Shown here: positions 1-61,190 of the stretch, in pieces
Numbering within the stretch: position 1 is the stretch's first letter
Layout of the letters: the number at the start of each line of letters is the position of its first letter
Source of the DNA: a virus
Taxonomy: Duplodnaviria > Caudoviricetes
Strand: one strand, 5' to 3'
IMG/VR virus record: IMGVR_UViG_3300009001_000002
Location: 1 to 61,190 of that record
Length of the DNA: 61,190 nt
Notes under the pieces: model-generated
What the model saw: the letters and a program-made list of their open reading frames with translations, nothing else
Told to the model about the DNA's origin: nothing
The model's database searches: none
Program-made: the position numbers and the translations under genes

Positions 1-123
1 AAAGCAATTGAGTTAATGAGTGATAGTGAATTAAAAGATTATCGGGATAAGCAACTATTAGACTATGAGGACGTATTTTGGTCTAAAGAGGAATTAAAAA
101 ACTTTATAATAGATTTACTATGA
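1..123. repeat. 123-bp terminal direct repeat, left copy (circular-assembly overlap)
   Basis: 1-123 is identical to 61068-61190; it encodes the 3' end of the last ORF, whose TGA overlaps the ATG at 120 (ATGA). Confidence 0.95.
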
Positions 124-671
124 ACGGAATATTAATTGTAGAAGGGCCAGATGGTGCTGGTAAGACTACATTAATAAATCAACTTAGAGAACACTGGTTA
201 TTTAAAACTCGCTATATGCATCTTCGAGTGCATAAAGAAATGGAAAAGTGGCATTGCGCTACTGCGAGAAGAGCCATTCGATTATCAAAAGATTATCTTG
301 TTATACTAGATCGACACTGGCCGAGTGAACAAATCTATTCTTATGAACGATCACCTGGTCCAAGCTACGACCCTACGAATATGGTTGATTGGCTAAAGAG
401 TCATGGAGCAATCTATATATGGGCTATACCAGAAGATTATGAAAGATTAATTGAAGAACATAAAACTAGAAGAGAAGAAAGACACGAAGAGTACCACGAT
501 ATATCTAAAGTTGTTAAAAGATATTACGATCACTGGTACGGTACTTATGAAGGACCAGATAATTATTTAAAGAAGATACAACCATTAAATAAAAGAGATG
601 ACTTCATACGATACGATCGGTTTACTGATAAAGATATTTTAGATAAAATAATAGATAGATTAAGACCATAG
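120..671 (+). CDS. P-loop dNMP kinase (thymidylate-kinase-like)
   Basis: IVEGPDGAGKTT Walker A and ILDRHW (DR) motif; adjacent to the TS homologue. Confidence 0.8.
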   Translation: MNGILIVEGPDGAGKTTLINQLREHWLFKTRYMHLRVHKEMEKWHCATARRAIRLSKDYLVILDRHWPSEQIYSYERSPGPSYDPTNMVDWLKSHGAIYIWAIPEDYERLIEEHKTRREERHEEYHDISKVVKRYYDHWYGTYEGPDNYLKKIQPLNKRDDFIRYDRFTDKDILDKIIDRLRP

Positions 672-684
672 AAAGGAAGAAAGA

Positions 685-1464
685 ATGCCTATGAATCATG
701 CTAATGAAGTTTATCGCAATCTAATTGATGAAGTAGAAGATAGAGGATTCGGAGCAAACCCTCGTGGTATGTTTACGAAAGAGATTATCGGACACACGAC
801 TAGATGCGATATGAGTTCACCTATCGTTACGATACCAGAAAGAGAACTTGGATATAAGTTCATGTTCGCTGAAGCACACTGGATATTATCAGGTGATAAT
901 CGAGTATCGACAATTAAACCTTACTCTAACGTTATTAAAAGATTTAGTGATGACGGAGTATTTTATTTCGGAGCCTACGGCCCTAAGATCGTAGATCAAT
1001 TACCTTATATCTGTAAAGCTTTAAGTGATGATATAGATACTCGTCAAGCTTGTATTAATATATGGAGAGAGAAACCACCGGTATCGAAAGACGTACCTTG
1101 CACGTTATCTTTACAGTTCTTAGTTCGCAGAGATACTTTATATGTTATTGCGAATATGAGAAGTAATGATATATGGCTCGGTTGGCCTTACGATAACTTT
1201 AACTTTAGTATGATTGGCTTATCTGTCTGTCTTTTAATGAAAGAAATTCATGGTAAAGATCTTAAATTAGGAATGCTTACTAATAATGCTGGTAGTAGAC
1301 ATCTTTATAAAGAGAACTTTGAAAAGGCTTTTAAAGTTGTGGATTCTGAAGAAATAGGAAAATCTTATCCTACTTTTAAACCTGAGAACTTTAACAGCTT
1401 CGAAGATTTAAAGTATCGTTTACACGCATGGAAAGATAATCCTGATGAATTTTTTACAGCATAG
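685..1464 (+). CDS. Thymidylate-synthase-family enzyme, probably a dCMP hydroxymethylase/methylase/hydroxylase
   Basis: DTRQA, VPC catalytic Cys139, MRSNDIWLGWPYD with Asp170 where dUMP-specific ThyA has Asn; HLY motif. Confidence 0.8.
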   Translation: MPMNHANEVYRNLIDEVEDRGFGANPRGMFTKEIIGHTTRCDMSSPIVTIPERELGYKFMFAEAHWILSGDNRVSTIKPYSNVIKRFSDDGVFYFGAYGPKIVDQLPYICKALSDDIDTRQACINIWREKPPVSKDVPCTLSLQFLVRRDTLYVIANMRSNDIWLGWPYDNFNFSMIGLSVCLLMKEIHGKDLKLGMLTNNAGSRHLYKENFEKAFKVVDSEEIGKSYPTFKPENFNSFEDLKYRLHAWKDNPDEFFTA

Positions 1465-1906
1465 ACCTTCGAAAGATGAATACTTTATGGATATGGCACT
1501 TCTTGTGTCAGAGAGAAGTACGTGTCTTAGAAGAAAAGTTGGTGCTGTTTTAATTAATAAAAGAAAACATGTTCTTGCTACAGGGTATAATGGTGTGGCA
1601 TCAGGGCAACCTCATTGTTTAGATATACCATGCATTGGTGCTAACTCAGCATCAGGAACTGATTTAGATTTATGTGAAGCTGTTCATGCGGAACAGAACG
1701 CATTACTTCAGTGTAGAAATGTGTTTGAAATCGATACTTGCTACGTTACAGTATCTCCTTGCATGACGTGTACTAAGTTATTATTAAATACGAGTTGTCA
1801 GACTATTATCTTTGAAGAAGATTACGTTGATCAGAAAGCAAGACTATTATGGGAACGACACGATAGAAAGTGGGTAAGGATTGACGGATCTTTTCAAACC
1901 CACTAG
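1445..1906 (+). CDS. dCMP deaminase
   Basis: RSTCLRRKVGA, TGYNG, HAEQNA and SPCMTC zinc motifs. Confidence 0.92.
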   Translation: MNFLQHRPSKDEYFMDMALLVSERSTCLRRKVGAVLINKRKHVLATGYNGVASGQPHCLDIPCIGANSASGTDLDLCEAVHAEQNALLQCRNVFEIDTCYVTVSPCMTCTKLLLNTSCQTIIFEEDYVDQKARLLWERHDRKWVRIDGSFQTH

Positions 1907-3743
1907 CAATTGGACACCTCCTACAGTACTTCCTGATCTCTCTCCCTCTAAAATAATCGGAGTTGATTTAGAAACATTCGACCCAGGCTTAAAGAAGTAT
2001 GGACCTGGAAGCATCAGAAAAGATGGTCAAGTTGCAGGAATCAGTGTAGCAGGAGATAATGGTAAAGGTTATTACCTTCCTATCGCACATCAAGATGGTG
2101 GCAATCTTCCTAAACCTTTAGTTATAAATTACTTAAAAGAATTACTTGCGACTGATACTCCGAAAGTATTTGCGAATGCTTTATACGATTTAGAATGGCT
2201 TCATAACTTAGGAATTAAAGTTAATGGTAAATGCTATGACGTTCAATTACTAGAACATCTTATAGATGAAAATCAGAAAGATTATTCATTACAAGCTTTA
2301 GGAAAAAAGTATGTCGGTGACGGTAAAGATGAAACTTTATTAACTGACGCTGTTCGAGCACACTTCGGAAAGAAAGATGTTAAGGGAAATATATGGCGCC
2401 TTCATAGTAGTTATGTAGGACCGTATGCGGAACAGGATGCGATACTTCCTGTAAAGATTATTAAGGAACAGTGGAAACAGATAAAGCAACAAGAACTAGA
2501 AAGAATTGTAAGATTAGAAACAAACTTAACTCCGATGCTTTTATCTATGAGAGTACAGGGAGTGAGTGTAGATTTAGATAACGCAGAGAAAGTATCGAAA
2601 AGATTAGAACTACAGGAACATGAAGCAAAAGATATTTTAAATAAGAAATCAGGGATTGACTGTAACGTATGGGCAAATGAAAGTTTAGGAAGAGCCTACG
2701 ATAATTGTAGTATTCCTTACGGTCGTACTCCTACAGGAAAGCCTAGCTTTACTCAAGTCTTTCTTGATCAAGCTGAAGATGAATTATCAAGCTTAGTATT
2801 AAAAGTCAGGAAACTAAATAAGCTACGCACGACATTTATTCATGGCATGATTTTAGAGAAACATGTAAACGGAAGAGTGCATTGTCAATTCAATGCGAGA
2901 GGAGCAGTAACAGGAAGATTTAGTTCAAGTAACCCGAATCTACAGCAAGTACCTGCTCGTGATGAAGAACTGTCTAAATTAATACGAGGCCTCTTTTTGC
3001 CAGAGCAAGATCAGAAATGGTACTGTATTGACTACGCACAACAAGAGCCGAGATTATTAGTTCACTTTGCGTCAAGATTAAAATTACCAGAAAGTATTAC
3101 TGCGTTATCAGCTTATAAGACTGATGAGAAAACTGACTTCCATACGATGGTCGCATCGATGGCAGGAATAAAAAGAAAGCAAGCTAAGACGATTAACTTA
3201 GGACTATTCTATGGTATGGGTAAAAAGAAATTAGCAAGTCAGTTAGGACTTGAATGGAATGAAGCAGAATCTTTATTTAAGAAATATCATACACGTGTTC
3301 CTTTCGTGAGAGGTCTATACGATAGAATGTTAAACTATGCAAGTAAGAGTGGTTACATAAAAACTTTACTCGGTCGCAAACGACACTTCGATCTATGGGA
3401 AGATGCTACTGACTTCGGAAGCATGGGTCATCCATTAGAACGAGCAAAAGAAATTTATAAAGGAAAACCGTTAAGACGTGCTTATACGCATAAAGCATTA
3501 AATTCTTTAATACAAGGAAGTGCTGCTGACGTAACGAAAGCGGCCATGCTAAAAGTCTATGAAGCAGGACTATTGACGCCTTTATTAACAGTTCATGATG
3601 AACTCGATTTCTCAATACCGCAAGATAGTAAGGGTTTCGAGCAGTTGAAAGAGATCGTGCATGAAATGAAGAACTGCGTTGACCTGGACCTACCTCTCCA
3701 GGTTGACGTAGAATCAGGGAAAGATTGGGGTAACATTGAGTGA
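1881..3743 (+). CDS. polA: DNA polymerase family A with 3'-5' exonuclease
   Basis: DLET exonuclease motif, TGRFSSSNPNLQQVP, DYAQQEPR (motif A), KTINLGLFYG (motif B), VHDEL (motif C); TTG start. Confidence 0.95.
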   Translation: MTDLFKPTSNWTPPTVLPDLSPSKIIGVDLETFDPGLKKYGPGSIRKDGQVAGISVAGDNGKGYYLPIAHQDGGNLPKPLVINYLKELLATDTPKVFANALYDLEWLHNLGIKVNGKCYDVQLLEHLIDENQKDYSLQALGKKYVGDGKDETLLTDAVRAHFGKKDVKGNIWRLHSSYVGPYAEQDAILPVKIIKEQWKQIKQQELERIVRLETNLTPMLLSMRVQGVSVDLDNAEKVSKRLELQEHEAKDILNKKSGIDCNVWANESLGRAYDNCSIPYGRTPTGKPSFTQVFLDQAEDELSSLVLKVRKLNKLRTTFIHGMILEKHVNGRVHCQFNARGAVTGRFSSSNPNLQQVPARDEELSKLIRGLFLPEQDQKWYCIDYAQQEPRLLVHFASRLKLPESITALSAYKTDEKTDFHTMVASMAGIKRKQAKTINLGLFYGMGKKKLASQLGLEWNEAESLFKKYHTRVPFVRGLYDRMLNYASKSGYIKTLLGRKRHFDLWEDATDFGSMGHPLERAKEIYKGKPLRRAYTHKALNSLIQGSAADVTKAAMLKVYEAGLLTPLLTVHDELDFSIPQDSKGFEQLKEIVHEMKNCVDLDLPLQVDVESGKDWGNIE

Positions 3744-10861: not shown

Positions 10862-10883
10862 AAACAAAAGGAGAAAGTAGAAA

Positions 10884-11360: not shown

Positions 11361-11418
11361 AATAAAGAGGTTTCATCTGACGATTAATAGTTTATAATAA
11401 AACAAAAAGGAGAAAGAA

Positions 11419-12037: not shown

Positions 12038-12090
12038 AACTGTTATTTAAAATTTTATAATAAAGAAACTTTAAAAAGAAAGGTCGAAAG

Positions 12091-26322: not shown

Positions 26323-26686
26323 TAAACGTGGACCGACTAAAGCACCATCTTTTCCTTTTGCTAGAGGAAAATATGCTAGAGCAATTTCAGATCGTTCAGG
26401 ATTAGAATTTCCTTATTTAGAAATGGTTCGTGAATGGAACGGACTACTAGTTCACACTAGCGAGTATGAACCAAAACAACCACAACTCGATCCCATAGTT
26501 TTTAGTGATCCAGAAGCACTAAAGAATGCCAGACCTCAGGCTCCTCTTTCAGCTACAGGAGGCGTACCTAATCAATTATCAGTAATCTATCCGGGCACTT
26601 TTGGAGACACAGGACAAGAAGTAGGAGTAGCTACCGGAAACCAAACAGAATTGGAGTTAGGAAATGTCTCAGTCGTCATCAGCTAA
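26312..26686 (+). CDS. Conserved structural-module protein
   Basis: GKYA.AISDRSG..FPY..M..EWNG...EPKQPQL. Confidence 0.6.
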   Translation: MAFNKRGPTKAPSFPFARGKYARAISDRSGLEFPYLEMVREWNGLLVHTSEYEPKQPQLDPIVFSDPEALKNARPQAPLSATGGVPNQLSVIYPGTFGDTGQEVGVATGNQTELELGNVSVVIS

Positions 26687-27449
26687 AGATGCATATATAA
26701 TGCTTTGTACACCATGTTATGGTGGTATGATGCATGAAGCTTACTTTCATAGTGTAGTAAAATTATTTCAAGAAGCAAGAGATAAAAATTTTAAAATTCA
26801 TTTAAATACTATGGGAAACGAAAGTTTAATTACTAGAGGAAGAAACACGATGGTATCTCAATTTATGGATAATGAACACTGCACTCATTTATTATTTGTA
26901 GATTCCGACATCGCTTTCTATCCTGAATTAGTTACTAAATTATTAGAATTTGATAAAGATGTTGTAACAGCTATCTATCCTCGAAAAACTATCGAATGGA
27001 AGAATTTAGAGTACTACGTTAAAAAAGGAGATCTAAAAACTATGGAGCAGAAGTTATTAGGATATAACTTAAACTTTCCTGATCCTTTAAATATAGACGT
27101 ACAAGACGGATTCGTAGAAGTATTAGATGCCGCTACAGGTTTCATGCTTATTAAAAAAGATGTATTTGTAAAAATGAGAGAAGCGTATCCTGAATTAAAA
27201 TATACTTCTGATCAGATTATTAATAATAAAACGTATTCTAGTGATTGGTGTTATGCTTTTTTCGATTGTATGATTGATCCTAAAAGTAATCGATATCTAA
27301 GTGAAGATTACACATTCTGTCGTAGATGGCAGCAAATAGGTGGAAAAATATACGCTGAAATAACATATCCATTAACTCATTACGGAACTTACGGTTTTAG
27401 AGGAAATGTATCGCATAAATTTGCAAAAAAAGATAGTATAGACATATAA
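26664..27449 (+). CDS. GT-A-fold glycosyltransferase-like protein
   Basis: TPCYGG, ESLITRGRN, LLFVDSDI (DxD), ATGFMLIK, LSEDYTFC, H.G. Confidence 0.72.
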   Translation: MSQSSSAKDAYIMLCTPCYGGMMHEAYFHSVVKLFQEARDKNFKIHLNTMGNESLITRGRNTMVSQFMDNEHCTHLLFVDSDIAFYPELVTKLLEFDKDVVTAIYPRKTIEWKNLEYYVKKGDLKTMEQKLLGYNLNFPDPLNIDVQDGFVEVLDAATGFMLIKKDVFVKMREAYPELKYTSDQIINNKTYSSDWCYAFFDCMIDPKSNRYLSEDYTFCRRWQQIGGKIYAEITYPLTHYGTYGFRGNVSHKFAKKDSIDI

Positions 27450-49610: not shown

Positions 49611-50337
49611 ACCAGTATCGTCAATAACTAGAATAGGTCAAACGGAACCTTTTGAACTACAAGTATCAAGAGATCAAATCGCATATCATGAAGTAAGAAA
49701 TATATTTGGTTGGCAATCATCCGTTTCAACTACTTTTATTCCTTTATGGGAAAATGCTACTGCTTATACGTATCCTACATCAGCTTTACAAATGACTGTT
49801 ACTTCAGCGTCAGCTTCAGATGACGGTGGAACTATTTTAATTAAAGGATTAGATATTAACTATGAAGAAATTACAGAAGTAGTTACTTGTAATAATGCTA
49901 CTCCACCGACAACTACGAAAGGATTTTTTAGAATTAATGATGTTATTTTTACTAATTCTTCAGGTGCGAATGTAGGAATTATTACTATCGCAAACGGCGG
50001 AACTACTTATGCTAAAATACTCGCAGGAGTAGGAAGAAATCAAGCAAGTATTTTTACCGTGCCCGCAGGAAAATGTTTTTTCTTATATCGTATTGATGCG
50101 TTTTCAAATGATAGTACTGCCGCTAAACCTGGTTTATTTAGAAACTATGTTCAATATGATACCGGTGCTATTTATACTGTAGCAAGAACTACTTTTACAG
50201 GGAACATGAACATCCAAAGAAGATTACCTTTTAAGTATAATGAAAAGACAGATATACAATTTCAGTTACAAACTAATTCGGGTTCTCACGAAATGAACGT
50301 GTTCGGAGAAGGTATTCTTCTTAGAGATACTGTCTAA
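49600..50337 (+). CDS. Conserved beta-rich hypothetical (possibly virion) protein
   Basis: FELQVSR.QI..H...FG...GLD.NY...RIN...TVPAG...EKTDI. Confidence 0.6.
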   Translation: MANKPVSSITRIGQTEPFELQVSRDQIAYHEVRNIFGWQSSVSTTFIPLWENATAYTYPTSALQMTVTSASASDDGGTILIKGLDINYEEITEVVTCNNATPPTTTKGFFRINDVIFTNSSGANVGIITIANGGTTYAKILAGVGRNQASIFTVPAGKCFFLYRIDAFSNDSTAAKPGLFRNYVQYDTGAIYTVARTTFTGNMNIQRRLPFKYNEKTDIQFQLQTNSGSHEMNVFGEGILLRDTV

Positions 50338-51809
50338 ATCCACTCTTTCCAATTATCACCTGTAATACTATCTGCTAAAGATTTTTTATTTCTTAATGCT
50401 TCAAATATTTTTTCATCAATAGTCTTAGGAGTTACAAAATCAATATAAGTAACTTTATTAGTTTGACCAATTCTATGAGGTCTATCTTCCGATTGTAGTC
50501 GTACTTCTAAATCGTAGCTATTCGCATAGTAAATAACAGTAGTGGCGTTAGTTAAAGTTAATCCATAACCACCCGTTCTAGGTTGCCCTATGAAATAATC
50601 TATTTTACCAGCTTGGAATTCGGTTACTATTTCCTGTCTATTTTCCGATTTTGTATCACCATAATAAGTGGCGCAAGTTTTATTAGGTAGATGTTTCTTA
50701 ATAGCGTTTTCTATATCGTGAATAGATCTAGTATAGTTAGACCAAATAATAGCTTGGCCTTCCGTTTCTTCGAGTACTTGTAATAGTTCCGTTATTCGAG
50801 GATTGACTTTATCTATTTCTTCTTCTCTTCCGTCATCATACTTTACGAAGCCACACATGATTTGTTGTAATCTTAGTAATCGTGTAATAACTAAAGGAGC
50901 GGTTACAGACTTTTCTTCCGATAACTCAATATATGCTTTACGTTTTAATATATCATACACTTTCTTCTGTTTCGGAGTCATTTCGATTTCTCTTTTCGTG
51001 TAAACTTTATCTGGTAAATCTAAACATTCAGCTTTCGTTACACGATAAGAATAAGGTTTTAAGATATCTTGTAATTCATCTAAGTTCTGATAATCTACGA
51101 TTTCATCAAAAGTTCTCATATTAATAGTTCGCCTACGTAAGACACAGTAACGATTACGAAAACCATAAAAAGAAGATTGTAAAATATTATCAGAAAGAAA
51201 AGACATCTGAGTATAGATATCTATGGGCCCTGCCGTTACAGGTGTTCCTGTTAATATTCTACGATACTTTGCCATATTCGCTATCTTTAATAAATTCTTC
51301 GTTCTTCGAGCAGTCTTATGCTTTATTGTTGATGATTCATCAATCACGACCATAGACTTATGAACATTTAAAAATCGTTGCGTATAGTGAAGTCCCTTTA
51401 ATGTACTAAAAGCTTCTATATTAATAATAAAAACTTTAAGACCGTTATGATTCACTTTTATAAAATCAGTTAGTCTTTCTATATTCTTTTTCGTTTCCGT
51501 AGGATTCCATAGTTCCATGTAGATAGAATCAAGGACATCATCGGGCATGTGAATTGGTATTTCTTGCTTTAGCCAGTTACGATAAACACCTTTCGGTGCT
51601 ACAATAATCGCACTATCGATACTGCCTTTTCTTGCAAGATGAGTTATTGTGTCTACAATAACTTTAGATTTACCAGTACCTTGTTCCATAAACAAGGCGT
51701 AGTATTCCTCATCACGAGAAGTTTTAAAGACGTCCCATTGATGTTTAAATGGTTTCGTCTTATATTTATAATCTATAAATTCATCGTCACTAAAAGATAC
51801 TTGCGTCAT
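50334..51809 (-). CDS. SNF2-family (SF2) helicase
   Basis: MEQGTGKS, IDESS, LTGTP, GGYGLTL, QSEDRPHRIGQ. Confidence 0.92.
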   Translation of the reverse strand: MTQVSFSDDEFIDYKYKTKPFKHQWDVFKTSRDEEYYALFMEQGTGKSKVIVDTITHLARKGSIDSAIIVAPKGVYRNWLKQEIPIHMPDDVLDSIYMELWNPTETKKNIERLTDFIKVNHNGLKVFIINIEAFSTLKGLHYTQRFLNVHKSMVVIDESSTIKHKTARRTKNLLKIANMAKYRRILTGTPVTAGPIDIYTQMSFLSDNILQSSFYGFRNRYCVLRRRTINMRTFDEIVDYQNLDELQDILKPYSYRVTKAECLDLPDKVYTKREIEMTPKQKKVYDILKRKAYIELSEEKSVTAPLVITRLLRLQQIMCGFVKYDDGREEEIDKVNPRITELLQVLEETEGQAIIWSNYTRSIHDIENAIKKHLPNKTCATYYGDTKSENRQEIVTEFQAGKIDYFIGQPRTGGYGLTLTNATTVIYYANSYDLEVRLQSEDRPHRIGQTNKVTYIDFVTPKTIDEKIFEALRNKKSLADSITGDNWKEWI

Positions 51810-55450: not shown

Positions 55451-56233
55451 TTGTATTTATTTTTCGACACCGAAACAAACGGCTTGTGGCGCCGTGATCT
55501 AGAAGCTACTGATCCAAATCAACCACATTTAGTACAAATAGCTGCACAGTTAGTAGATGAAGATGAAAAAGTTGTTAACCAATATTCGATGCTCATTCGA
55601 CCAGAAGGTTGGAGTATTCCTAAAGATGCTGAAGATGTTCATGGCATCTCCAATGAGAAGGCATCTACTTATGGTGTACCTTTGGTTAGTGCCCTCTCTG
55701 TGTTTAATTCTATGGCAGCTTCAGCGCATACAATTGTCGCTCATAACTTAGCTTTTGACTTGCAAATAATTGCAAGAGATTTTCATTATTTAAAGAAACC
55801 TTTTCGACAACCAAAAGACTTGCATTGTACTATGATGAGTACGAAAGATATTCTAAAATTAGAAAGTGATTTTGATGATTATAAATTTCCTAAGTTAATT
55901 GAAACGTATGAACACTTTTTTAATGTAGGATATTTCGATTGGCACGATGCTTTAGCTGACGTTCAAGTATGTCGAATTATTTATTTTCATTTAAAGAATC
56001 AAGGAATTGAGTTAAAAGCACCACGACAGCTTCCTAAAAAGCTGTTAAAAGTAATGAATAATGACGATTATGAAGAATTAATCGGTTTAATTTCATCTAT
56101 AAATAGAGATAATATAAGCGATTGGGAGAGTAATTTTCTCAAAGATCAAGAAGAAAGAATAGAGAAATACAAAGAGAAAGTTATGATCTCCGATAAACAA
56201 ATGAACATTATAAGGAGAATGGCAGAAAAATGA
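55451..56233 (+). CDS. DEDDh 3'-5' exonuclease (DnaQ-like)
   Basis: FDTETNG, VHGIS, AHNLAFD, HDALADV. Confidence 0.88.
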   Translation: MYLFFDTETNGLWRRDLEATDPNQPHLVQIAAQLVDEDEKVVNQYSMLIRPEGWSIPKDAEDVHGISNEKASTYGVPLVSALSVFNSMAASAHTIVAHNLAFDLQIIARDFHYLKKPFRQPKDLHCTMMSTKDILKLESDFDDYKFPKLIETYEHFFNVGYFDWHDALADVQVCRIIYFHLKNQGIELKAPRQLPKKLLKVMNNDDYEELIGLISSINRDNISDWESNFLKDQEERIEKYKEKVMISDKQMNIIRRMAEK

Positions 56234-57186
56234 AACGCATCGTTGTAACCGGAGCAACAGGATTTCTAGGAAGAAATCTATGTGAGAAGTTATTAGAACA
56301 AGGACATCAAGTTATTGGTGTTGATAATCATTTAACAGGGAGTGAATCTAATATTTTAGATGAGGATAATTATAGTTTTTATGAAGCTGATATCGTTAAA
56401 GACGATCTATCAATGCTTCTTCGAGAACATAATAAAAAAGGAATACACTATATCTATAACTTAGCTTGTCCAGCATCGCCTGATCATTATAAAACTCATG
56501 CATTTCAAACTTTAGAAGTTTGCTTTAATGGAATGAAGAATATGATTCAGTATGCGTTAGAACAAGGAAATGTTCGTATGCTTCATACTTCTACAAGTGA
56601 AGTATATGGAGATCCTGAAGTAGATGATCAGAAAGAAACGTATTGGGGAAATGTAAATTCTTTTGGACCTCGTGCTTGTTATGATGAAGGTAAAAGAGTT
56701 GCGGAAGCTTTAATCTATGAATCAATAAATAAATTAAAATCGAATATAGGAATCGCAAGAATCTTTAATACTTACGGTCCTTATATGGCGATTAATGATG
56801 GTAGAGTAATATCGAATTTTATTACTCAAGGTTTACAGGGTAACCATCTTATCATATACGGCGGAGGTTTTCAATCTAGATCTTTTTGTTATGTTGATGA
56901 TACAATAGAAGGTTTAATTCGAATCTGTGAAAGTGATTATAAAGAAATATTTAACGTAGGAAATCCTGATCGTCATGCTATCGTAGAGATAGCAGAAGTA
57001 ATTGCTGAAAAGACTGACGCACCTGGTTGGAAGAACGATGCTCCTTCACCAGATGATCCTATGCATCGAAAGCCTAATATAGATAAGATTCAACACTATC
57101 TAGGTTGGACTCCTCAAGTAAAATTAAATCAAGGATTAGACGACACGATAGAATATTTTAAATATGCTCTCAAAAGACAAAACTAA
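56230..57186 (+). CDS. UDP-glucuronate decarboxylase (UDP-xylose synthase)-like SDR
   Basis: TGATGFLG, LACPASP.HY, TSTSEVYGDP, YWGNVN..GPRACYDEGKRVAE, RIFNTYGP, DGRVISNF, RSFCYVDD, DDP..R.P.I. Confidence 0.85.
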   Translation: MKRIVVTGATGFLGRNLCEKLLEQGHQVIGVDNHLTGSESNILDEDNYSFYEADIVKDDLSMLLREHNKKGIHYIYNLACPASPDHYKTHAFQTLEVCFNGMKNMIQYALEQGNVRMLHTSTSEVYGDPEVDDQKETYWGNVNSFGPRACYDEGKRVAEALIYESINKLKSNIGIARIFNTYGPYMAINDGRVISNFITQGLQGNHLIIYGGGFQSRSFCYVDDTIEGLIRICESDYKEIFNVGNPDRHAIVEIAEVIAEKTDAPGWKNDAPSPDDPMHRKPNIDKIQHYLGWTPQVKLNQGLDDTIEYFKYALKRQN

Positions 57187-58678
57187 AATAATTCTAGGTC
57201 CACCAGGTACGGGTAAAACCACTACATTATTAAATATCTTAGAAGAAGAAATAGAAAGTGGTATAGCACCAGAACGTATTGGCTTCGTATCATTTACACG
57301 CAGAGCGATTAAAGAAGCGAGAGATAGAACACTAGAAAAGTTTAAAGAGATTGATAAAGATCAATTAGACTACTTTAGAACACTTCATAGTTTATGTTTT
57401 AGATCTCTCGGTCTTAATAGTGAAAGAATATTTAAAGGTCTACACGTCACGGAATTTAAAAAGATACTTCGAATCGATATGACAGGCGATGTTGATGAAG
57501 AACAGATCGTTAATAACGGAGCAAGTTTAGGAGATCGCATGTTATTTTGCGATCAGTTAGCTAGGGCAAAGATGTGCCCACTAAAAGATACATGGAGAGA
57601 ATTAAAATGTGATTATTCGTGGGAAGAACAGAAACTATTTTCTGATACTCTCGTTGATTTTAAATTAAAAAGAAATCTTCTTGACTTTACTGATATGTTA
57701 AGTTCATTTCTCGAATCGGAATACACTCCTGATATTGATATTTTATTTGTTGATGAAGCACAAGACTTAACGAAGCTACAGTGGAAAGTAATTGATAAAC
57801 TATCTCATTCCGTTAAGACTATTTATATTGCAGGAGATGACGATCAAGCGATCTATAAATGGGCAGGTGCTGATGTAGATACGTTTCTTAGTCTTGATGG
57901 TGAGATTAGAATACTGCCATTTACTTATCGATTAAAAAAGCGTGTCTTTGATTTAGCGAATCAAGTAACAAAAAGAATTATAAATAGATACGATAAAGAT
58001 TGGTCTAGTTCAGAGGAACAGGGATCAGTAAACTACATTGAATCGTATGAGTATGCTGATATGTCAGAAGGAAGTTGGCTTATCTTAGCTAGAAATAACT
58101 ATCAGTTATATCCGATTGAAAAGTATTTAAAGCAGAAAGGATACATGTTTGAGAGAAAGTTTGGTGGATTCAAAGCTAATAAGTATGTTGTAGCAATTAG
58201 AACTTGGTTAGATTTAATCGAAGGAAAAGAAGTGCCTTACGATTCAATTATGAAGCTTTATAGCTGTATGAGAACAGGAGAAGGAATTACTCGAGGATTT
58301 AAAAACGGAAACAGTTTAGATAAGGAAAAAACATATACTTATAAAGAACTAAAAGATACTCACGGACTTATCGCAGAGGGTAAATGGGAAGAAGCTTTAA
58401 CTTTAATTCCTGATGACGATAAATATTATTATCAAGCTTTAGAAAAGACAGGTGATTTATTTTATAGCGAACCGAGAATACGATTAAGCACAATACATGG
58501 AAGTAAAGGTGCTGAAGCTGAAAATGTAATGTTACTCACTGATGTATCTTATGCTACATGGAAGAACATAAATGATCAATCTGATGATGAACATCGTGTT
58601 TTTTATGTAGGAATTACGAGAGCAAAGAATAATCTATTCATAGTGAATCCACAAGGATTGTATAGTTATCCTATATAA
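57164..58678 (+). CDS. UvrD/Rep-like SF1 helicase
   Basis: GPPGTGKT, SFTRRA, VDEAQD, GDDDQAIY, STIHGSKGAEA, YVGITRAK. Confidence 0.9.
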   Translation: MLSKDKTKIILGPPGTGKTTTLLNILEEEIESGIAPERIGFVSFTRRAIKEARDRTLEKFKEIDKDQLDYFRTLHSLCFRSLGLNSERIFKGLHVTEFKKILRIDMTGDVDEEQIVNNGASLGDRMLFCDQLARAKMCPLKDTWRELKCDYSWEEQKLFSDTLVDFKLKRNLLDFTDMLSSFLESEYTPDIDILFVDEAQDLTKLQWKVIDKLSHSVKTIYIAGDDDQAIYKWAGADVDTFLSLDGEIRILPFTYRLKKRVFDLANQVTKRIINRYDKDWSSSEEQGSVNYIESYEYADMSEGSWLILARNNYQLYPIEKYLKQKGYMFERKFGGFKANKYVVAIRTWLDLIEGKEVPYDSIMKLYSCMRTGEGITRGFKNGNSLDKEKTYTYKELKDTHGLIAEGKWEEALTLIPDDDKYYYQALEKTGDLFYSEPRIRLSTIHGSKGAEAENVMLLTDVSYATWKNINDQSDDEHRVFYVGITRAKNNLFIVNPQGLYSYPI

Positions 58679-58741
58679 TAAAAATCTTTGTTTTAAATGA
58701 AAAATAAATTAATATTATTTAAGTTAGAAAGGAGCACTTAA

Positions 58742-59791
58742 ATGAACGCAATTGGAAGCCACATTTTTGCTGGTGGTTTTACTCTCGGAGTAGAAAAGCA
58801 CTTCAATGTACTGGCACACTTTGAAGGTGATGGTGCCTACGGCGCTGACACATTCGCTTTAAATAGACCGAATATACCAGTTTTTTCTGGACCTTCTAAC
58901 TGGCCGGTTAAGGACTTCGAAGGTAAAGTAGATTTCGTTTACGGCAATCCTCCGTGTGCTCCTTGGTCAACACTAGGAACGGGCGGTCGCAAAGATTTAG
59001 ACTGGCGAGATGATCCTCGCATTGAAGCATGGTCTCATGTCTTTTCCCTTTTACACGATCTACAACCTAAAGCTTTAGCGATTGAGTCCGTTCCGAGAGT
59101 ATTCGCAAAAACAGGTGGAAGGCCAATGATTGAAAGTTTTACAGAAAAAGCAATACAAGCTGGCTATAATGTTACTCATTTTTTAGTTGATGGTCAGTAC
59201 ACGAATTTAAATCATAGTAGAAGAAGATTCTTTTTCTTAGCACATAAAGGAGGCCTATCTTTTCCACGATTGAATTGGAACCCTGCTCCAACTATCGCAG
59301 AAGTTTTAGCAGAAGTACCAGATCCTGGGCACATGAATAGTTTTACTAAAACAGAAGAAGAATTAGTTTCTCAGTGCGGTCAAGGAGAACAGTTAAGAAC
59401 GGTGTGGGAAAAATTAAATCCACCAGAAACTTGGCAACGATCTGAAAAAGGAAGAAGAGGTGTTAAAGGTAGACCTCAATTTATGAAATGGAGATTAAGA
59501 GATAATAAACCTGCGGGTGTTATTGCAGGAGGGTTTTATATTCACCCTACGGAAGATAGATTATTAGGCCATAAAGAATTGGCTCACTTCTCTGGTTATC
59601 CGCAAGATTATAAATGGGCCGGTCCTCCGTCTGGTTGGGGATCATTAATCGCACGATCAGTAATGCCACCTGTCGGTGAGTTCGTTGCGAGAGTAGTAAA
59701 AAATTCAATTGCTTCAGGTGAGCAAGCGAAAGAAGATGTACAGCTAGTGGATTATACAAAGCCACCTGCTATGGAGGATTTATTTGCATGA
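58742..59791 (+). CDS. C5-cytosine DNA methyltransferase-like enzyme with altered cofactor motifs
   Basis: GNPPC (IV), IESV (VI), RRRFF (VIII), IHPTEDRLL...E (IX); motif I is SHIFAGGF and motif X is IARSVMPP. Confidence 0.8.
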   Translation: MNAIGSHIFAGGFTLGVEKHFNVLAHFEGDGAYGADTFALNRPNIPVFSGPSNWPVKDFEGKVDFVYGNPPCAPWSTLGTGGRKDLDWRDDPRIEAWSHVFSLLHDLQPKALAIESVPRVFAKTGGRPMIESFTEKAIQAGYNVTHFLVDGQYTNLNHSRRRFFFLAHKGGLSFPRLNWNPAPTIAEVLAEVPDPGHMNSFTKTEEELVSQCGQGEQLRTVWEKLNPPETWQRSEKGRRGVKGRPQFMKWRLRDNKPAGVIAGGFYIHPTEDRLLGHKELAHFSGYPQDYKWAGPPSGWGSLIARSVMPPVGEFVARVVKNSIASGEQAKEDVQLVDYTKPPAMEDLFA

Positions 59792-60165
59792 GCCAATATA
59801 AAGATATTGATGCTTTTCATAAAAAGTTTAAATTTAATCAAGGTAAAGGAATTAAGTCAATGGATTATAGTTTTGGAAATTGGCGTGTTGACTTTCTTAT
59901 GGAAGAAATTGCTGAACTAACTGATGCTTTAGATAATAAAGATGACGTAGAAATACTAGATGCTTTAGTTGATATCTGCTACGTAGCTATGGGAACAGCG
60001 TGGTTAATGGGTTTACCATTTGAAAAAGCTTGGAAAGAAGTACAGAGATCTAATATGGAAAAGATTAGACAAGCAAGTGAACGATCTGAATTTGACGTAG
60101 TTAAACCTGAAGGTTGGAAGAAACCTGATATACGAGGAATTATTAAGAAATGGCAAAAGTCTTAA
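59788..60165 (+). CDS. All-alpha NTP pyrophosphohydrolase (MazG/PRA-PH-like; candidate dCTPase)
   Basis: EEIAEL...EILDALVDICYV.MG...EVQRSNMEK...KPEGW. Confidence 0.8.
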   Translation: MSQYKDIDAFHKKFKFNQGKGIKSMDYSFGNWRVDFLMEEIAELTDALDNKDDVEILDALVDICYVAMGTAWLMGLPFEKAWKEVQRSNMEKIRQASERSEFDVVKPEGWKKPDIRGIIKKWQKS

Positions 60166-61190
60166 TTACAGGATTCACTGCTAAAGGAATTGGTAGTGGT
60201 GATAATAAATTAAATATCGCAACAAGTGCGAATCTACTTCCGAAAGCACTAAAACTAGCAGGACACGAAGTAGTTCAAAAACCCATTATACCAGGTGATG
60301 ATGTATCGGAATACGATCATGTATTCGTCTTTATGTTTCCACCTAATAGTTTACCAAGTGCTTATACTTATGGTGCGATGTACACTTTAGCTAAAAGACC
60401 GGATGCTATCTGTGCTCTTGATGATTGGCAAACAAAAGACGTTCCTTCTGGTTTCGCTACGTTTGCAAGAGAAGGCCATTGGCGTTTATGGAAAACGCAA
60501 ACAAAGTCTGGTGCTCCTATGAAGAAGCGATACTATGATCAAGCACTTGACTATAAGCAAGAACTAAACGACCTATGCACTACAATGGGATTTGAAGAAT
60601 GGCCTTACAAATGTCTTGCACCAGTGTATAGAACTGGTAATATTGAAGCATTAGGTATAAAAGCGAAAGAATTGATTTCATGGGATCCGACTCCTATTTG
60701 CGATTCCTACATGGAAACGCCTACAGATCTATTTAGTATTGATCAGCAGGTTGACGTGAAAACTAAGGAAAAGAAATGGGTCTATGCTTCTCTTATTCAA
60801 AAGCCAGGTTGGTTAGAAAAAACACATGGTGAATGGGAAGTACAAGCTTATGGTAATAAAAATTTAGGACAGGAAAGAATTAGTGAACATGAATTATATA
60901 AAGTGTATCAGAAATCATGGGGAGTATTAGTACCACCTCATTATCATACTTTAAGAAAGAGTGGTTGGTGGAGAGTACGATACGGCATGATTAGAGATGC
61001 TCAATGCGTTACTGTAGGAGATTCTACGGAACTATCAATCTTCTTTGAAGATAGGGTTAAGTCTAGAAAAGCAATTGAGTTAATGAGTGATAGTGAATTA
61101 AAAGATTATCGGGATAAGCAACTATTAGACTATGAGGACGTATTTTGGTCTAAAGAGGAATTAAAAAACTTTATAATAGATTTACTATGA
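60150..61190 (+). CDS. GT-B glycosyltransferase resembling T4 DNA beta-glucosyltransferase
   Basis: 346 aa; KVLITG start, DVSEYDHVFVF resembling BGT DVNDYDRLIVV, DDWQ; C-terminal Y..SWGVL...WWRVRY; operon context. Confidence 0.55.
   Translation: MAKVLITGFTAKGIGSGDNKLNIATSANLLPKALKLAGHEVVQKPIIPGDDVSEYDHVFVFMFPPNSLPSAYTYGAMYTLAKRPDAICALDDWQTKDVPSGFATFAREGHWRLWKTQTKSGAPMKKRYYDQALDYKQELNDLCTTMGFEEWPYKCLAPVYRTGNIEALGIKAKELISWDPTPICDSYMETPTDLFSIDQQVDVKTKEKKWVYASLIQKPGWLEKTHGEWEVQAYGNKNLGQERISEHELYKVYQKSWGVLVPPHYHTLRKSGWWRVRYGMIRDAQCVTVGDSTELSIFFEDRVKSRKAIELMSDSELKDYRDKQLLDYEDVFWSKEELKNFIIDLL
61068..61190. repeat. 123-bp terminal direct repeat, right copy
   Basis: Identical to 1-123. Confidence 0.95.

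What the first reader, a model, noticed from the sequence alone, without database searches (positions are those of the whole stretch)
56230..61190. Cytosine-hypermodification operon crossing the circular junction, with a UDP-xylose synthase upstream
Seen: after closing the circle, one tightly packed run reads C5-MTase-like (58742) > NTP pyrophosphohydrolase > BGT-like glycosyltransferase > dNMP kinase (120) > Asp-type TS homologue (685) > dCMP deaminase > PolA. Most junctions overlap. A UDP-glucuronate decarboxylase sits two genes upstream. Known: T4 makes glucosyl-hmC with dCMP hydroxymethylase gp42, kinase gp1, dCTPase gp56, BGT and dCMP deaminase, and each has a counterpart here. Inference: this small podovirus-like phage makes a C5-modified dCTP, incorporates it, then glycosylates it, plausibly with xylose. 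I know of no described xylosylated DNA base. An annotator would miss the operon because the window splits it.
Basis: partly seen in the sequence, partly recalled or inferred. Interest (0 to 1): 0.93.

Follow-up and report, generated by a model that had tools for sequence, protein, structure and literature searches.

The report
Marine phage cytosine-glycosylation operon with xylose synthase
A complete 61-kb marine podophage genome carries a tight operon that most likely replaces cytosine with hydroxymethylcytosine and then attaches a sugar to it, and a phage-encoded UDP-xylose synthase suggests that sugar is xylose, which has not been firmly shown on any DNA base.

Summary
The window is a complete virus record with a 123-nt terminal repeat. 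Closing the circle gives one co-directional, mostly overlapping run: exonuclease > UDP-xylose synthase (UXS) > UvrD helicase > C5-methyltransferase-like > MazG pyrophosphatase > 346-aa protein > P-loop kinase > thymidylate-synthase (TS) homologue > dCMP deaminase > PolA.

The 346-aa protein folds confidently as a GT-B glycosyltransferase, and T4 beta-glucosyltransferase is its best solved match. The TS homologue has the published hydroxymethylase signature (D143, C146, D169, D177), the same as T4 gp42 and unlike RB69 5-hydroxy-dCMP synthase. The SDR is a true UXS.

Related HTVC023P-like contigs that keep the module always carry a nucleotide-sugar enzyme. Two clades have UXS and one has a UDP-sugar dehydrogenase plus NadE. 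More distant phages with the same GT family carry Ugd+UXS or UDP-galactopyranose mutase. Relatives without the module have none.

Glycosylated 5hmC DNA is likely (about 0.8). Xylose as the sugar is plausible but unproven (about 0.45-0.5). A second, GT-A glycosyltransferase in the structural module could instead use the UDP-xylose.

Diverse DNA glycans supplied by phage sugar enzymes are already published. This is therefore a new variant of a known kind. The conserved C5-methyltransferase-like gene is unexplained.

The parts
1..123 (.). Left copy of the 123-nt direct terminal repeat (identical to 61068-61190). It holds the last 40 codons and the stop of the GT gene.
55451..56233 (+). RNase T / DnaQ-type 3'-5' exonuclease. 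This is the first gene of the overlapping run and is context only.
   Evidence: PF00929, 52.1 bits; phrog_192
56230..57186 (+). UDP-glucuronate decarboxylase (UDP-xylose synthase, UXS), an extended SDR. It is the proposed supplier of the sugar donor.
   Evidence: human UXS1 E 2.3e-79, against 7.2e-28 for the next SDR type. The SEVYGDP, YDEGKR and SRSF stretches align with the UXS1 sequence; pN/pS 0.09-0.23.
57164..58678 (+). UvrD/Rep-type SF1 helicase (replication gene, context only).
   Evidence: PF00580, 110.5 bits; homologous helicases stand upstream of PolA in HTVC023P and 023Pt_psg01
58742..59791 (+). C5-cytosine methyltransferase-like protein. It is conserved as the first gene of the module and its role is unexplained.
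   Evidence: PF00145, 81.6 bits; aligns to M.HaeIII with PPC, ESV and RxR retained, and motif I reads IFAGGF; these motifs are conserved across 55 rows.
59788..60165 (+). MazG-like all-alpha NTP pyrophosphohydrolase. Its proposed role is a dCTP/dUTP-ase, analogous to T4 gp56.
   Evidence: PF01503, 54.2 bits; phrog_671; best PDB match DR2231 MazG-like NTP-PPase, 2.3e-9
60150..61190 (+). GT-B fold glycosyltransferase of an unnamed viral family (phrog_14998). It is the proposed DNA 5hmC glycosyltransferase.
   Evidence: AF2 pLDDT 91.3, pTM 0.89; the top 4 PDB hits are T4 BGT, best E 9.1e-7, prob 1.0, TM 0.49.; one nearby Atlas cluster is 40% PF09198.
120..671 (+). P-loop nucleotide kinase, weakly thymidylate-kinase-like. 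Its proposed role is a 5hm-dCMP kinase.
   Evidence: Walker A region only, below the cut-offs; phrog_761 'thymidylate kinase', 9.9e-11; no PDB relative beyond the P-loop.
685..1464 (+). Thymidylate-synthase-family enzyme with the dCMP hydroxymethylase signature.
   Evidence: PF00303; best PDB match is MilA CMP 5-hydroxymethylase, 3.4e-21. D143/C146/D169/D177, the same as T4 gp42.
1445..1906 (+). dCMP deaminase.
   Evidence: PF00383, 75.8 bits; phrog_174, 9.4e-41
1881..3743 (+). Family A DNA polymerase with a 3'-5' exonuclease domain. It is the last gene of the run and must accept the modified dNTP.
   Evidence: (42-45% identity to the HTVC023P-type polymerases)
26664..27449 (+). Second glycosyltransferase, GT-A fold with an invariant DxD motif, in the structural module. 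It is a possible alternative user of UDP-xylose.
   Evidence: Anp1 23 bits, below the cut-off; phrog_34859 'glycosyltransferase', 1.8e-7. FIDADI invariant; pLDDT 87.6; the top PDB hits are the STIV A197 GT and the LH3 GT domain.

Best explanation
The window is the complete genome of an HTVC023P-like marine podophage. Its replication operon contains a two-stage cytosine hypermodification pathway.

Stage 1 acts before replication, on nucleotides, and is inferred.
- The MazG-type pyrophosphatase turns dCTP (and dUTP) into the monophosphate.
- The TS-family enzyme converts dCMP to 5-hydroxymethyl-dCMP.
- The P-loop kinase, together with host NDP kinase, raises it to the triphosphate.
- dCMP deaminase drains the remaining dCMP towards dUMP/dTMP.
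- The phage PolA then builds 5hmC into DNA in place of C.

Stage 2 acts on DNA and is inferred from fold and context. The BGT-fold GT-B enzyme transfers a sugar from a UDP-sugar to the 5-CH2OH group.

Stage 3 tailors the donor and is inferred from comparative genomics. The phage UXS decarboxylates host UDP-glucuronate to UDP-xylose. This clade would therefore make 5-(xylosyloxymethyl)cytosine. The sister clade has a UDP-sugar dehydrogenase plus NadE and would instead use a uronic-acid donor.

The purpose would be protection from restriction and CRISPR nucleases, as for T4.

My odds are about 0.8 that virion DNA carries a glycosylated 5hmC and about 0.45-0.5 that the sugar is xylose. The stated confidence is for the whole chain. 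The conserved C5-methyltransferase-like protein belongs to the module, but its step is unknown.
For: Shown by tools:
- GT fold. The AF2 model has pLDDT 91.3. T4 BGT entries take ranks 1-4 of the PDB search and T4 AGT also appears.
- TS signature. The window and 69 of 73 aligned homologues have D143/C146/D169/D177. The two experimentally typed controls behave as published: T4 gp42 (5hm) has D/C/D/D and RB69 gp48 (5-hydroxy) has E/C/N/D (rule read in PMC13326640, sections 24 and 28).
- UXS. Human UXS1 scores E 2.3e-79 against 7.2e-28 for the next SDR class.
- Operon. The genes overlap and run in one direction. All module genes are under purifying selection, with pN/pS 0.05-0.31.

Comparative evidence:
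- The order C5MT>MazG>GT>kinase>TS>dCD>PolA recurs in 38 of 80 GT-family loci and in 6 close relatives.
- UXS stands between the exonuclease and UvrD in 6 of 6 close relatives and in 7 of 8 loci of the next clade. The eighth locus is cut off upstream.
- The third clade has no UXS there (0 of 24 loci that cover the junction). It has an NDP-sugar dehydrogenase directly after PolA in 23 of the 23 loci that reach that far, and NadE in 20 of those 23.
- More distant phages with the same GT family and an hm-type TS carry Ugd+UXS (L050/L058, where UXS scores E 8.2e-93 to hUXS1; L049) or UDP-galactopyranose mutase immediately after the GT (6 loci, plus DSL-LC01 and Erwinia FBB1).
- A control clade of module-less relatives has none of these genes (0 of 80 loci). 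The whole records of HTVC023P, 023Pt_psg01 and G004 have no PF01370 or PF03721 match.

Published support:
- GT activity on 5hmC strictly depended on the co-encoded sugar 'epimerase' in phage clusters (bioRxiv 10.1101/2023.12.21.572611, passages read).
- TS + PRA-PH + dCMP deaminase co-occur specifically in cytosine-modified viral contigs (PMC8670742, passages read).
- Cultured phage AXL3 carries the closest isolate-borne version of the nucleotide module (TS 46% identity, same signature). Its DNA resisted 35 of 37 restriction enzymes and was cut only by the two with A/T-only sites (PMC7504290, passages read).
Against: - There is no chemical evidence of any kind for this phage.
- The GT has no sequence-level link to T4 BGT: no Pfam hit and hhalign probability 13.6%. 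Its acceptor is inferred from fold and neighbourhood only.
- UXS is separated from the GT by three genes and is absent from the largest clade that keeps the GT.
- The window has no UDP-glucose dehydrogenase, so UXS depends on host UDP-glucuronate, and the host is unknown.
- UXS also occurs in many giant-virus and large-phage contigs that have neither the GT nor the TS nearby (57 of the 63 loci). It is therefore not specific to DNA modification.
- A GT-A glycosyltransferase in the structural module could be the real user.
- A search for GT residues that track the donor gene gave no convergent signature.
- Within the HTVC023P-like group the UXS clades are sister groups. Their co-occurrence with the GT therefore counts as one event rather than 13.
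- The L143D/E rule for hydroxymethyl against methyl products is described by its authors only as a correlation.
- A C5-methyltransferase would have no substrate if C were fully replaced, so its strict conservation does not fit the simple T4-like scheme.
Confidence: 0.5

Rival explanations
1. The phage makes glycosylated 5hmC as above, but the GT uses a host donor such as UDP-glucose. UXS is an auxiliary gene for something else: glycosylating virion proteins or host envelope glycans through the GT-A enzyme at 26664-27449, or reshaping the host UDP-sugar pool.
For: - The GT-A protein has an invariant DxD motif and a confident GT-A fold. Its best PDB matches include protein-glycosylating enzymes.
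- It lies between two SU10-adaptor-like structural genes.
- It is present in the UXS clade and the dehydrogenase clade (G001, G002, G003).
- UXS is common in giant-virus contigs that lack any DNA-modification genes.
- The largest GT-bearing clade has no UXS.
Against: - The GT-A family also occurs in HTVC023P and HTVC027P. The whole HTVC023P record was searched and holds no SDR or dehydrogenase.
- It was not detected in the records behind L049, L050 and L058, which carry Ugd+UXS. Those records are only 27-71% complete.
- UXS sits inside the overlapping replication and nucleotide operon, not beside the GT-A gene.
- The sugar-enzyme gene changes with the GT-B lineage (UXS, dehydrogenase, Ugd+UXS, mutase) in several unrelated phage backbones.
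Confidence: 0.3
2. The TS homologue does not make 5hm-dCMP. It makes 5-methyl-dCMP (as reported for XP12-type phages; this is recalled, not checked here) or another C5 product. The GT-B enzyme then acts on a non-DNA acceptor or on another base.
For: - Product specificity in this superfamily has surprised the field before: RB69 gp48 hydroxylates (PMC13326640).
- The position-143 rule is a correlation.
- The C5-methyltransferase-like gene hints at 5mC chemistry.
- AXL3 has the nucleotide module without any GT.
Against: - All four diagnostic positions equal those of T4 gp42 and of MilA, both hydroxymethylases.
- The best solved sequence match is a CMP hydroxymethylase.
- A BGT-fold GT placed directly between the pyrophosphatase and the kinase/TS pair mirrors the kinase-GT-TS triads of RB69, DLP3 and RL38J1 (PMC13326640 Table 1) and the adjacent gene 42 and beta-gt of T4.
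Confidence: 0.12
3. Modification is only partial or sequence-specific. The C5-methyltransferase-like enzyme is the main DNA-level modifier, and the TS/deaminase/MazG genes serve ordinary nucleotide supply.
For: - The C5-MTase-like gene is strictly conserved with catalytic Cys, Glu and Arg and is under purifying selection.
- No phage-encoded canonical ThyA or ThyX was seen among the 50 window proteins scanned against Pfam.
Against: - An Asp at position 177 makes the TS homologue a poor dUMP enzyme (established for ThyA N177D; cited in PMC13326640 and PMC8670742).
- No TET/5mYOX-like oxygenase that could turn 5mC into 5hmC for the GT was found among those 50 proteins.
- AXL3 DNA resisted all 35 tested enzymes that have G/C in their sites, which is not a single-motif pattern (PMC7504290).
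Confidence: 0.08

Closest known systems
T4 glucosyl-hydroxymethylcytosine pathway (gp56 dCTPase, gp42 dCMP hydroxymethylase, gp1 kinase, Cd deaminase, beta-glucosyltransferase)
   Same: - The logic is the same: deplete dCTP, hydroxymethylate dCMP, phosphorylate, incorporate, then glycosylate on DNA.
- The TS homologue has the same four diagnostic residues as gp42.
- The GT has the BGT fold.
- In T4 too, gene 42 and beta-gt are neighbours next to the polymerase.
   Different: - The GT is not a sequence-level member of the BGT family.
- The kinase resembles thymidylate kinases only weakly and is not gp1-like.
- The pyrophosphatase is closest to DR2231-type MazG.
- The host virus is a 61-kb podophage with PolA, not a T4-like myovirus.
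- A UXS and a C5-methyltransferase-like gene are added.
- T4 uses host UDP-glucose and encodes no sugar-nucleotide enzyme.
Arabinosyl- and galactosyl-5-hydroxycytosine systems of RB69, DLP3 and RL38J1 (PMC13326640; sections 24, 25, 27, 28 and the discussion read)
   Same: - A kinase + GT + TS-homologue triad stands next to the polymerase region.
- Phage-encoded enzymes make the special sugar donor (a UDP-arabinose pathway; UDP-galactopyranose mutase).
- The theme is 'glycodiverse' cytosines built from one nucleotide intermediate.
   Different: - Those TS homologues carry D169N and make 5-hydroxy-dCMP with a flavin. The window enzyme keeps D169, so the sugar would hang on a hydroxymethyl group rather than directly on O5.
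- The donor enzyme here is a UXS.
- The GT families differ: no RB69, Acinetobacter or Rhizobium record was among the 42 phage records hit by the window GT.
MT/TET-dependent phage DNA glycosyltransferase clusters (bioRxiv 10.1101/2023.12.21.572611; abstract and passages read)
   Same: - BGT-like GT-B enzymes act on 5hmC.
- GT activity depends on a co-encoded SDR 'epimerase'.
- Hexuronic-acid-modified cytosine was observed.
- The authors' mining found GT-B contigs mostly associated with TS homologues and sometimes with epimerases and methyltransferases.
   Different: - There 5hmC is made on DNA by a C5-MTase plus TET. Here it would be made as a nucleotide by a TS homologue, and no TET-like gene was found.
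- The main text of that paper has no occurrence of 'xylose', 'pentose' or 'arabinose'.
Shewanella phage Thanatos cytosine-pentose modification (PMC12838424; abstract and passages read)
   Same: - A pentose-type sugar on cytosine is proposed to be xylose-related.
- A phage enzyme makes UDP-xylose in vitro.
- A TS homologue, a dCTPase and a dCMP deaminase are present.
   Different: - Thanatos is T4-like.
- UDP-xylose there comes from a pyrophosphorylase acting on xylose-1-phosphate, not from a UXS.
- The sugar was a deoxypentose of unresolved configuration.
- Xylosyl transfer to DNA was not obtained.
- According to PMC13326640 the Thanatos TS homologue produced 5-hydroxy-dC.
Stenotrophomonas phage AXL3 nucleotide module (PMC7504290; passages read)
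   Same: - The gene order is methyltransferase > NTP pyrophosphohydrolase > kinase > TS homologue > dCMP deaminase.
- TS is 46%, the deaminase 53% and MazG 36% identical to the window proteins.
- The TS signature is the same.
- The DNA is experimentally resistant to enzymes with G/C in their sites.
   Different: - There is no GT and no sugar enzyme.
- Its methyltransferase gave no BLAST match to the window C5-MTase-like protein at E 1e-3.
- It is a siphovirus of a soil host.
- The modification has not been identified.

Membership tests
T4 beta-glucosyltransferase family (Pfam PF09198, GT-B fold) | Significant match to the family HMM or profile | tested here: not met
   no Pfam family at E <= 0.01; hhalign of the 39-sequence profile against T4 BGT gave probability 13.6% over 40 columns. 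A lead only: one nearby ESM Atlas cluster has 40% of members with PF09198.
T4 beta-glucosyltransferase family (Pfam PF09198, GT-B fold) | Two-Rossmann-domain GT-B fold closest to BGT | tested here: met
   pLDDT 91.3. PDB ranks 1-4 are T4 BGT entries (E 9.1e-7 to 1.0e-4, prob 1.00, TM 0.46-0.51). The low TM is expected for a hinged two-domain protein.
T4 beta-glucosyltransferase family (Pfam PF09198, GT-B fold) | Catalytic Asp (BGT D100) and transfer of a sugar to 5hmC in duplex DNA | not testable with these tools
   An invariant DD pair (D91, D92) follows strand 87-90, a position comparable to a catalytic base. No residue-level superposition was available, and activity needs an assay.
[quoted passage not shown] | TS fold/HMM and catalytic Cys146 | tested here: met
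   PF00303, 70.5 bits against a cut-off of 24.3. Cys is present in the VPC motif.
[quoted passage not shown] | Asp at ThyA position 177 (cytosine substrate) | tested here: met
   PYD aligns with the TS PFN and with D of T4 gp42 and MilA.
[quoted passage not shown] | Acidic residue at position 143 (non-methyl product) and Asp kept at 169 (not a 5-hydroxy-dCMP synthase) | tested here: met
   the window has D143 and D169, as T4 gp42 does. RB69 gp48 has E143 and N169. The rule is taken from PMC13326640, sections 24 and 28.
[quoted passage not shown] | Product is 5-hydroxymethyl-dCMP | not testable with these tools
   Needs the in vivo or in vitro assay.
UDP-glucuronate decarboxylase (UDP-xylose synthase, UXS1 type) | Closest to characterised UXS rather than to other extended SDRs | tested here: met
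   four human UXS1 chains score 2.3e-79 to 1.6e-78 over residues 2-316. The next best are UDP-glucose 4-epimerase (7.2e-28) and ArnA (1e-25). No NCBIfam equivalog reached its cut-off; the best was dTDP-glucose dehydratase at 115 bits against 365.
UDP-glucuronate decarboxylase (UDP-xylose synthase, UXS1 type) | Catalytic Ser/Thr-Tyr-Lys triad with the UXS Glu and Arg | tested here: met
   In the alignment, TSTSEVYGDP, CYDEGKR and QSRSF align with identical residues of UXS1. The assignment of these residues as catalytic is recalled, not taken from a call.
DNA (cytosine-5) methyltransferase (PF00145) | Family HMM, catalytic Pro-Cys, motif VI Glu, motif VIII Arg | tested here: met
   81.6 bits against a cut-off of 22. 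PPC, ESV and RRR align with M.HaeIII PPC, ENV and RKR; these are conserved in the family. TIGR00675 is below its cut-off (45.6 against 100.65).
DNA (cytosine-5) methyltransferase (PF00145) | Canonical AdoMet-binding motif I (FxGxG) | tested here: inconclusive
   the motif reads IFAGGF in the window type and LAGF in the L050 type, one residue shorter than the M.HaeIII FSGAGG. Whether AdoMet binds cannot be told from this.
HTVC023P-type pelagiphages | Shared replication and structural genes and genome size | tested here: inconclusive
   - PolA is 42-45% identical to HTVC023P and 023Pt_psg01.
- The primase and UvrD helicase are homologous and in the same order.
- The genome is 61 kb against 59.8-60.9 kb.
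- No whole-genome clustering was done, and the host is unknown.

The most novel reading that the evidence does not exclude
A widespread group of marine HTVC023P-like podophages sets the sugar on its hydroxymethylcytosine by swapping a single nucleotide-sugar gene. The UXS clades would make xylosyl-5hmC, a DNA base not yet demonstrated. The sister clade, with a UDP-sugar dehydrogenase plus NadE, would make a hexuronosyl-5hmC. Actinophage relatives with the same GT family would make galactofuranosyl- or xylosyl-5hmC. In addition, the strictly co-conserved C5-methyltransferase-like enzyme, with its shortened cofactor loop, would not be an ordinary methylase. It would be a dedicated step of the pathway acting on 5hmC DNA or on residual cytosines.
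Probability: 0.35. Interest if true: 0.78.

Novelty: new variant of a known kind. Interest (0 to 1): 0.62.

Why it matters
If the chemistry is confirmed, it would add a pentose (xylose) O-linked to 5hmC to the list of natural DNA bases. It would also place sugar-hypermodified DNA in small podophages of an abundant marine lineage.

Heavy modification of that kind bears on three things:
- how well such viruses are recovered by sequencing
- how marine hosts restrict them
- the enzyme toolbox for labelling 5hmC

The comparative pattern is one GT family on several phage backbones, each with a different donor-making gene. That gives a ready-made natural experiment on how DNA glycosyltransferases change donor specificity.

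The principle is already established: phage GTs are fed by co-encoded sugar enzymes and produce diverse DNA glycans. The gain is therefore a new member or variant and a clean test system, not a new kind of biology.

Tried and rejected
- Sequence-level link of the GT to T4 BGT: none (Pfam and NCBIfam; PDB phmmer; hhalign).
- Donor-specificity residues. I compared 13 GTs from UXS-only loci with 29 from dehydrogenase-only loci, out of 85 aligned. There were 17 fixed differences, but none was shared with the independent UXS lineages L049 and L050. The dehydrogenase clade alone has N10, R28, D144 and E239. This is suggestive at most, and there was no structural mapping.
- Promoter and terminator scans were at or below shuffle expectation and showed no intergenic + strand terminator inside the run. 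They neither support nor contradict a single transcript.
- UDP-glucose dehydrogenase in the window: absent, with working controls.
- Tet_JBP in the window: no match, but the control genomes also gave none, so that call proves nothing. The statement that no TET-like gene is present rests on Pfam scans of 50 window proteins. ORFs under about 100 aa and four ORFs of 139-154 aa were not scanned against Pfam.
- 5-hydroxycytosine route: rejected because D169 is kept.
- Thymidine hypermodification, as described for other HTVC023P-type phages (PMC9599517, passages): rejected because of Asp177, and because no aGPT-Pplase-like family appeared in the Pfam scans.
- UXS phylogeny. The careful tree search did not finish, so the quick tree was used. 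It contains viral sequences only. The branches that separate L049 and L050 from the window clade have SH-aLRT support of only 83-88, so independent acquisition is suggested, not shown.
- The control clade for the co-occurrence test is one narrow lineage (85-98% PolA identity), and 60 of its 80 loci are under 10 kb. It counts as roughly one observation.
- tRNA scan: none found.
- Literature. The searches found no paper that links a UDP-glucuronate decarboxylase to phage DNA modification and none that demonstrates a xylosylated DNA base. The library lacks most subscription journals.
- Rows dropped before counts: BLAST matches covering less than half of the query; minus-strand or short matches (under 150 aa, under 250 aa, under 200 aa); identical sequences.

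Full report
**What is there**

The window is a whole virus record. Its first 123 bases repeat its last 123. The source classes it as having direct terminal repeats and as 100% complete. Nearly all genes are on the + strand, and GC content is 35.6%.

Across the junction lies one run of co-directional genes that mostly overlap by 4-26 nt:
- exonuclease 55451-56233
- an extended SDR 56230-57186
- UvrD helicase 57164-58678
- C5-cytosine methyltransferase-like protein 58742-59791
- MazG-type pyrophosphohydrolase 59788-60165
- a 346-aa protein 60150-61190
- a P-loop kinase 120-671
- a thymidylate synthase (TS) homologue 685-1464
- dCMP deaminase 1445-1906
- PolA 1881-3743

Pfam supports all of these except the 346-aa protein, and supports the kinase only through its P-loop. 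PHROGs and NCBIfam agree. The GT gene itself is complete at the window end.

**The three key proteins**

1. The 346-aa protein. It has no Pfam, NCBIfam or PDB sequence match, but it has at least 56 full-length relatives in metagenomes. With a 39-sequence alignment, AlphaFold2 gives a confident model (pLDDT 91.3, pTM 0.89).
   - Foldseek against the PDB puts four T4 beta-glucosyltransferase entries first (E 9.1e-7 to 1.0e-4, probability 1.00, TM about 0.5). Other GT-B enzymes follow, including T4 alpha-glucosyltransferase.
   - Against viral models it matches its own family, Gordonia phage proteins, generic GT1 enzymes and the SP-15 glycosyltransferase.
   - A profile-to-sequence comparison with T4 BGT is not significant (13.6%). 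The protein works like BGT by fold but is not a member of its sequence family.
2. The TS homologue. Its best solved relative is MilA, a CMP hydroxymethylase (3.4e-21). A recent paper gives residue rules in E. coli ThyA numbering (PMC13326640, sections 24 and 28): N177D selects dCMP, L143D/E goes with a non-methyl product, and D169N marks the flavin-dependent 5-hydroxy-dCMP synthases of RB69 and DLP3. I aligned 73 homologues. The window protein and 69 of the 73 sequences read D143, C146, D169, D177. T4 gp42 reads the same and RB69 gp48 reads E, C, N, D, as published. The hydroxymethylase reading is therefore the best supported. The 5-hydroxy route is rejected. The methylase route is unlikely but cannot be excluded from sequence alone.
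3. The SDR. It matches human UDP-glucuronate decarboxylase at 2.3e-79 over its whole length, fifty orders of magnitude better than any other SDR class, and the active-site stretches are conserved.

**Relatives**

By PolA, primase and helicase, the phage belongs with the HTVC023P-type marine podophages. The cultured members and 023Pt_psg01 go directly from helicase to PolA and lack the whole module.

In IMG/VR, 38 of the 80 loci fetched with the GT family (GT 46-53% identical) show the same order wherever the contig reaches. That order is primase, exonuclease, helicase, C5-MTase-like, MazG, GT, kinase, TS, deaminase, PolA. Six closer relatives (77-98% identical proteins) are fully syntenic with the window. 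All module genes show purifying selection against four of these relatives (pN/pS 0.05-0.31; UXS 0.09-0.23).

**Is UXS part of the pathway?**

The evidence is comparative.
- UXS lies between the exonuclease and the helicase in 6 of 6 close relatives and in 7 of 8 loci of the next clade. The eighth locus starts downstream of that point.
- In the third clade, 0 of 24 loci covering that junction have UXS. However, 23 of the 23 loci that extend beyond PolA carry a 423-aa nucleotide-sugar dehydrogenase immediately after it. It passes the TIGR03026 cut-off, and its best equivalogs are UDP-glucose 6-dehydrogenases. NAD+ synthase NadE follows it in 20 of those 23 loci, and an SDR epimerase is present in three.
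- More distant phages with the same GT family and an hm-type TS carry other donor genes. L050/L058 have C5-MTase-like > UDP-glucose dehydrogenase > UXS in tandem, and that UXS scores 8.2e-93 to human UXS1. L049 has UXS > a dehydrogenase-like gene. Six loci, plus Actinomycetia phage DSL-LC01 and Erwinia phage FBB1, have a UDP-galactopyranose mutase directly after the GT.
- A module-less control clade has none of these genes (0 of 80 loci). The complete records of HTVC023P and 023Pt_psg01 and the 95%-complete G004 have neither an Epimerase-family SDR nor a dehydrogenase.

The weight of this evidence has limits. The two UXS clades are sister groups in a quick UXS tree (SH-aLRT 99), so within this group the association is one event. 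L049 and L050 fall elsewhere, but on weakly supported branches. UXS is also frequent in giant-virus contigs that have no DNA-modification genes.

The published experiments matter here. In phage MT/TET clusters, GT activity on 5hmC strictly required the co-encoded sugar 'epimerase', and a hexuronic-acid cytosine was produced (10.1101/2023.12.21.572611, passages). RB69, DLP3 and RL38J1 encode their own UDP-arabinose or UDP-galactofuranose supply (PMC13326640). SP-15 has a UDP-glucose dehydrogenase in its hypermodification cluster (PMC5977210, passages). A donor-tailoring role for UXS is thus the natural reading.

**What argues against xylose on DNA**

- The window has no UDP-glucose dehydrogenase, so the substrate must come from an unknown host.
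- UXS is three genes away from the GT.
- There is a second glycosyltransferase at 26664-27449, between two SU10-adaptor-like structural genes. It has an invariant DxD motif and a confident GT-A fold. Its best PDB matches are the STIV A197 glycosyltransferase and the glycosyltransferase domain of human LH3.
- This GT-A protein belongs to a very large marine viral family (6,890 relatives at E <= 1e-5). It is present in both the UXS clade and the dehydrogenase clade, and also in HTVC023P and HTVC027P. The whole HTVC023P record holds no such sugar gene. It was not found in the incomplete records behind L049, L050 and L058. It remains a credible alternative user of UDP-xylose.
- I could not find GT-B residues that track the donor gene convergently.

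**Experimental anchor**

Stenotrophomonas phage AXL3 carries the closest isolate-borne version of the nucleotide part: methyltransferase > NTP pyrophosphohydrolase > kinase > TS with the same signature > dCMP deaminase. Its DNA resisted 35 of 37 restriction enzymes and was cut only by the two with A/T-only sites (PMC7504290, passages). MetaGPA found TS, PRA-PH and dCMP deaminase domains co-occurring specifically on cytosine-modified viral contigs (PMC8670742, passages). These results support the claim that this nucleotide module yields globally modified cytosine.

**The unexplained part**

The C5-methyltransferase-like gene is the first gene of the module in all three HTVC023P-like clades. It is also present, in a diverged form, in the DSL-LC01-like loci, where it directly precedes Ugd-UXS in L050. 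It keeps the catalytic Pro-Cys, the motif VI Glu and the motif VIII Arg. Its AdoMet loop is one residue shorter than in M.HaeIII. If C were fully replaced, it would have no substrate. I found no TET-like gene among the 50 window proteins scanned. Its role is open. It might methylate residual cytosines as a back-up, or carry out a step on 5hmC DNA.

**Comparison and verdict**

The system works like the T4 glucosyl-hmC pathway and like the recently described glycosyl-5-hydroxycytosine systems. It differs in four ways: the virus type, a GT family of its own, the hm-type TS combined with a UXS, and the added C5-MTase-like gene.

A xylosylated DNA base has not been demonstrated in the library I could search. 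The nearest report is the unresolved 'deoxypentose, putatively xylose' of phage Thanatos (PMC12838424).

I rate the observation confirmed and the interpretation partly supported. I class the finding as a new variant of a known kind. It is interesting mainly as a clean, testable case of donor switching in an abundant marine phage group.

Noticed in passing
window 26664-27449 (+): A GT-A fold glycosyltransferase with an invariant DxD motif sits between two SU10-adaptor-like genes (25639-26322 and 27449-28102) in the structural module. Its marine viral family has 6,890 relatives at E <= 1e-5. It may glycosylate virion proteins or, like some phage GT-A enzymes, DNA.
   Followed up: partly
L027:14699-16719, and the same place in 22 other loci (for example L026:14724-16750): The sister clade without UXS carries a nucleotide-sugar dehydrogenase directly after PolA. 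NAD+ synthase NadE follows it in 20 of 23 loci. Three loci add an SDR epimerase (L026:17099-17926). This suggests a uronic-acid donor plus cofactor supply.
   Followed up: partly
L050:9938-17729 (also L058): A DSL-LC01-like actinophage contig has the GT, then a 340-aa GT paralogue, then a dUTPase_2/MazG-like gene. Further downstream come a C5-MTase-like gene, a full-length UDP-glucose 6-dehydrogenase, UXS and a denV-like glycosylase. This is a complete phage-encoded route from UDP-glucose to UDP-xylose next to the modification genes.
   Followed up: partly
L004 (OQ999401.1) 8989-12134; L051, L057, L059, L060, L062, L065: In these phages the same GT family is followed immediately by a UDP-galactopyranose mutase and a second GT paralogue. 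Their TS homologues are hm-type, which predicts galactofuranosyl-5hmC, possibly di-glycosylated.
   Followed up: partly
window 56230-57186 against L087-L091: Among close relatives UXS is less conserved (77-84% identity) than its neighbours (exonuclease 85-94%, helicase 90-95%). It is still under purifying selection (pN/pS about 0.22). This points to faster evolution or recombination at this gene.
   Followed up: partly
L003 (Aeromonas phage 25) 3830-7101: Three adjacent genes of about 350 aa stand between motA and nrdC.10 in this T4-like phage. The middle one is a member of the window GT family, and similar hits occur in 19 Aeromonas phage records. They are likely uncharacterised DNA glycosyltransferases of T4-like Aeromonas phages.
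   Followed up: no
window 9871-10401 (+): A pyrimidine-dimer DNA glycosylase (denV-like; PF03013, 30.8 bits). The same family stands right after the methyltransferase or UXS genes in DSL-LC01 and L050.
   Followed up: no
window 50334-51809 (-): An SNF2-family helicase is the only long gene on the minus strand. It lies just upstream of the Pam3 gp33/gp34-like genes and the AEP-type primase.
   Followed up: no
window 28983-30701, 31276-33495, 41683-42795 (+): Three tail-fibre-like proteins each end in a Peptidase_S74 intramolecular chaperone domain.
   Followed up: no
L151 (AXL3) 3653-7687: AXL3 has the nucleotide module without a GT. Its 274-aa methyltransferase gave no BLAST match to the window C5-MTase-like protein at E 1e-3. 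The cytosine modification of this cultured phage, known only from restriction resistance, could probably be predicted as 5hmC or a derivative from the TS signature.
   Followed up: partly
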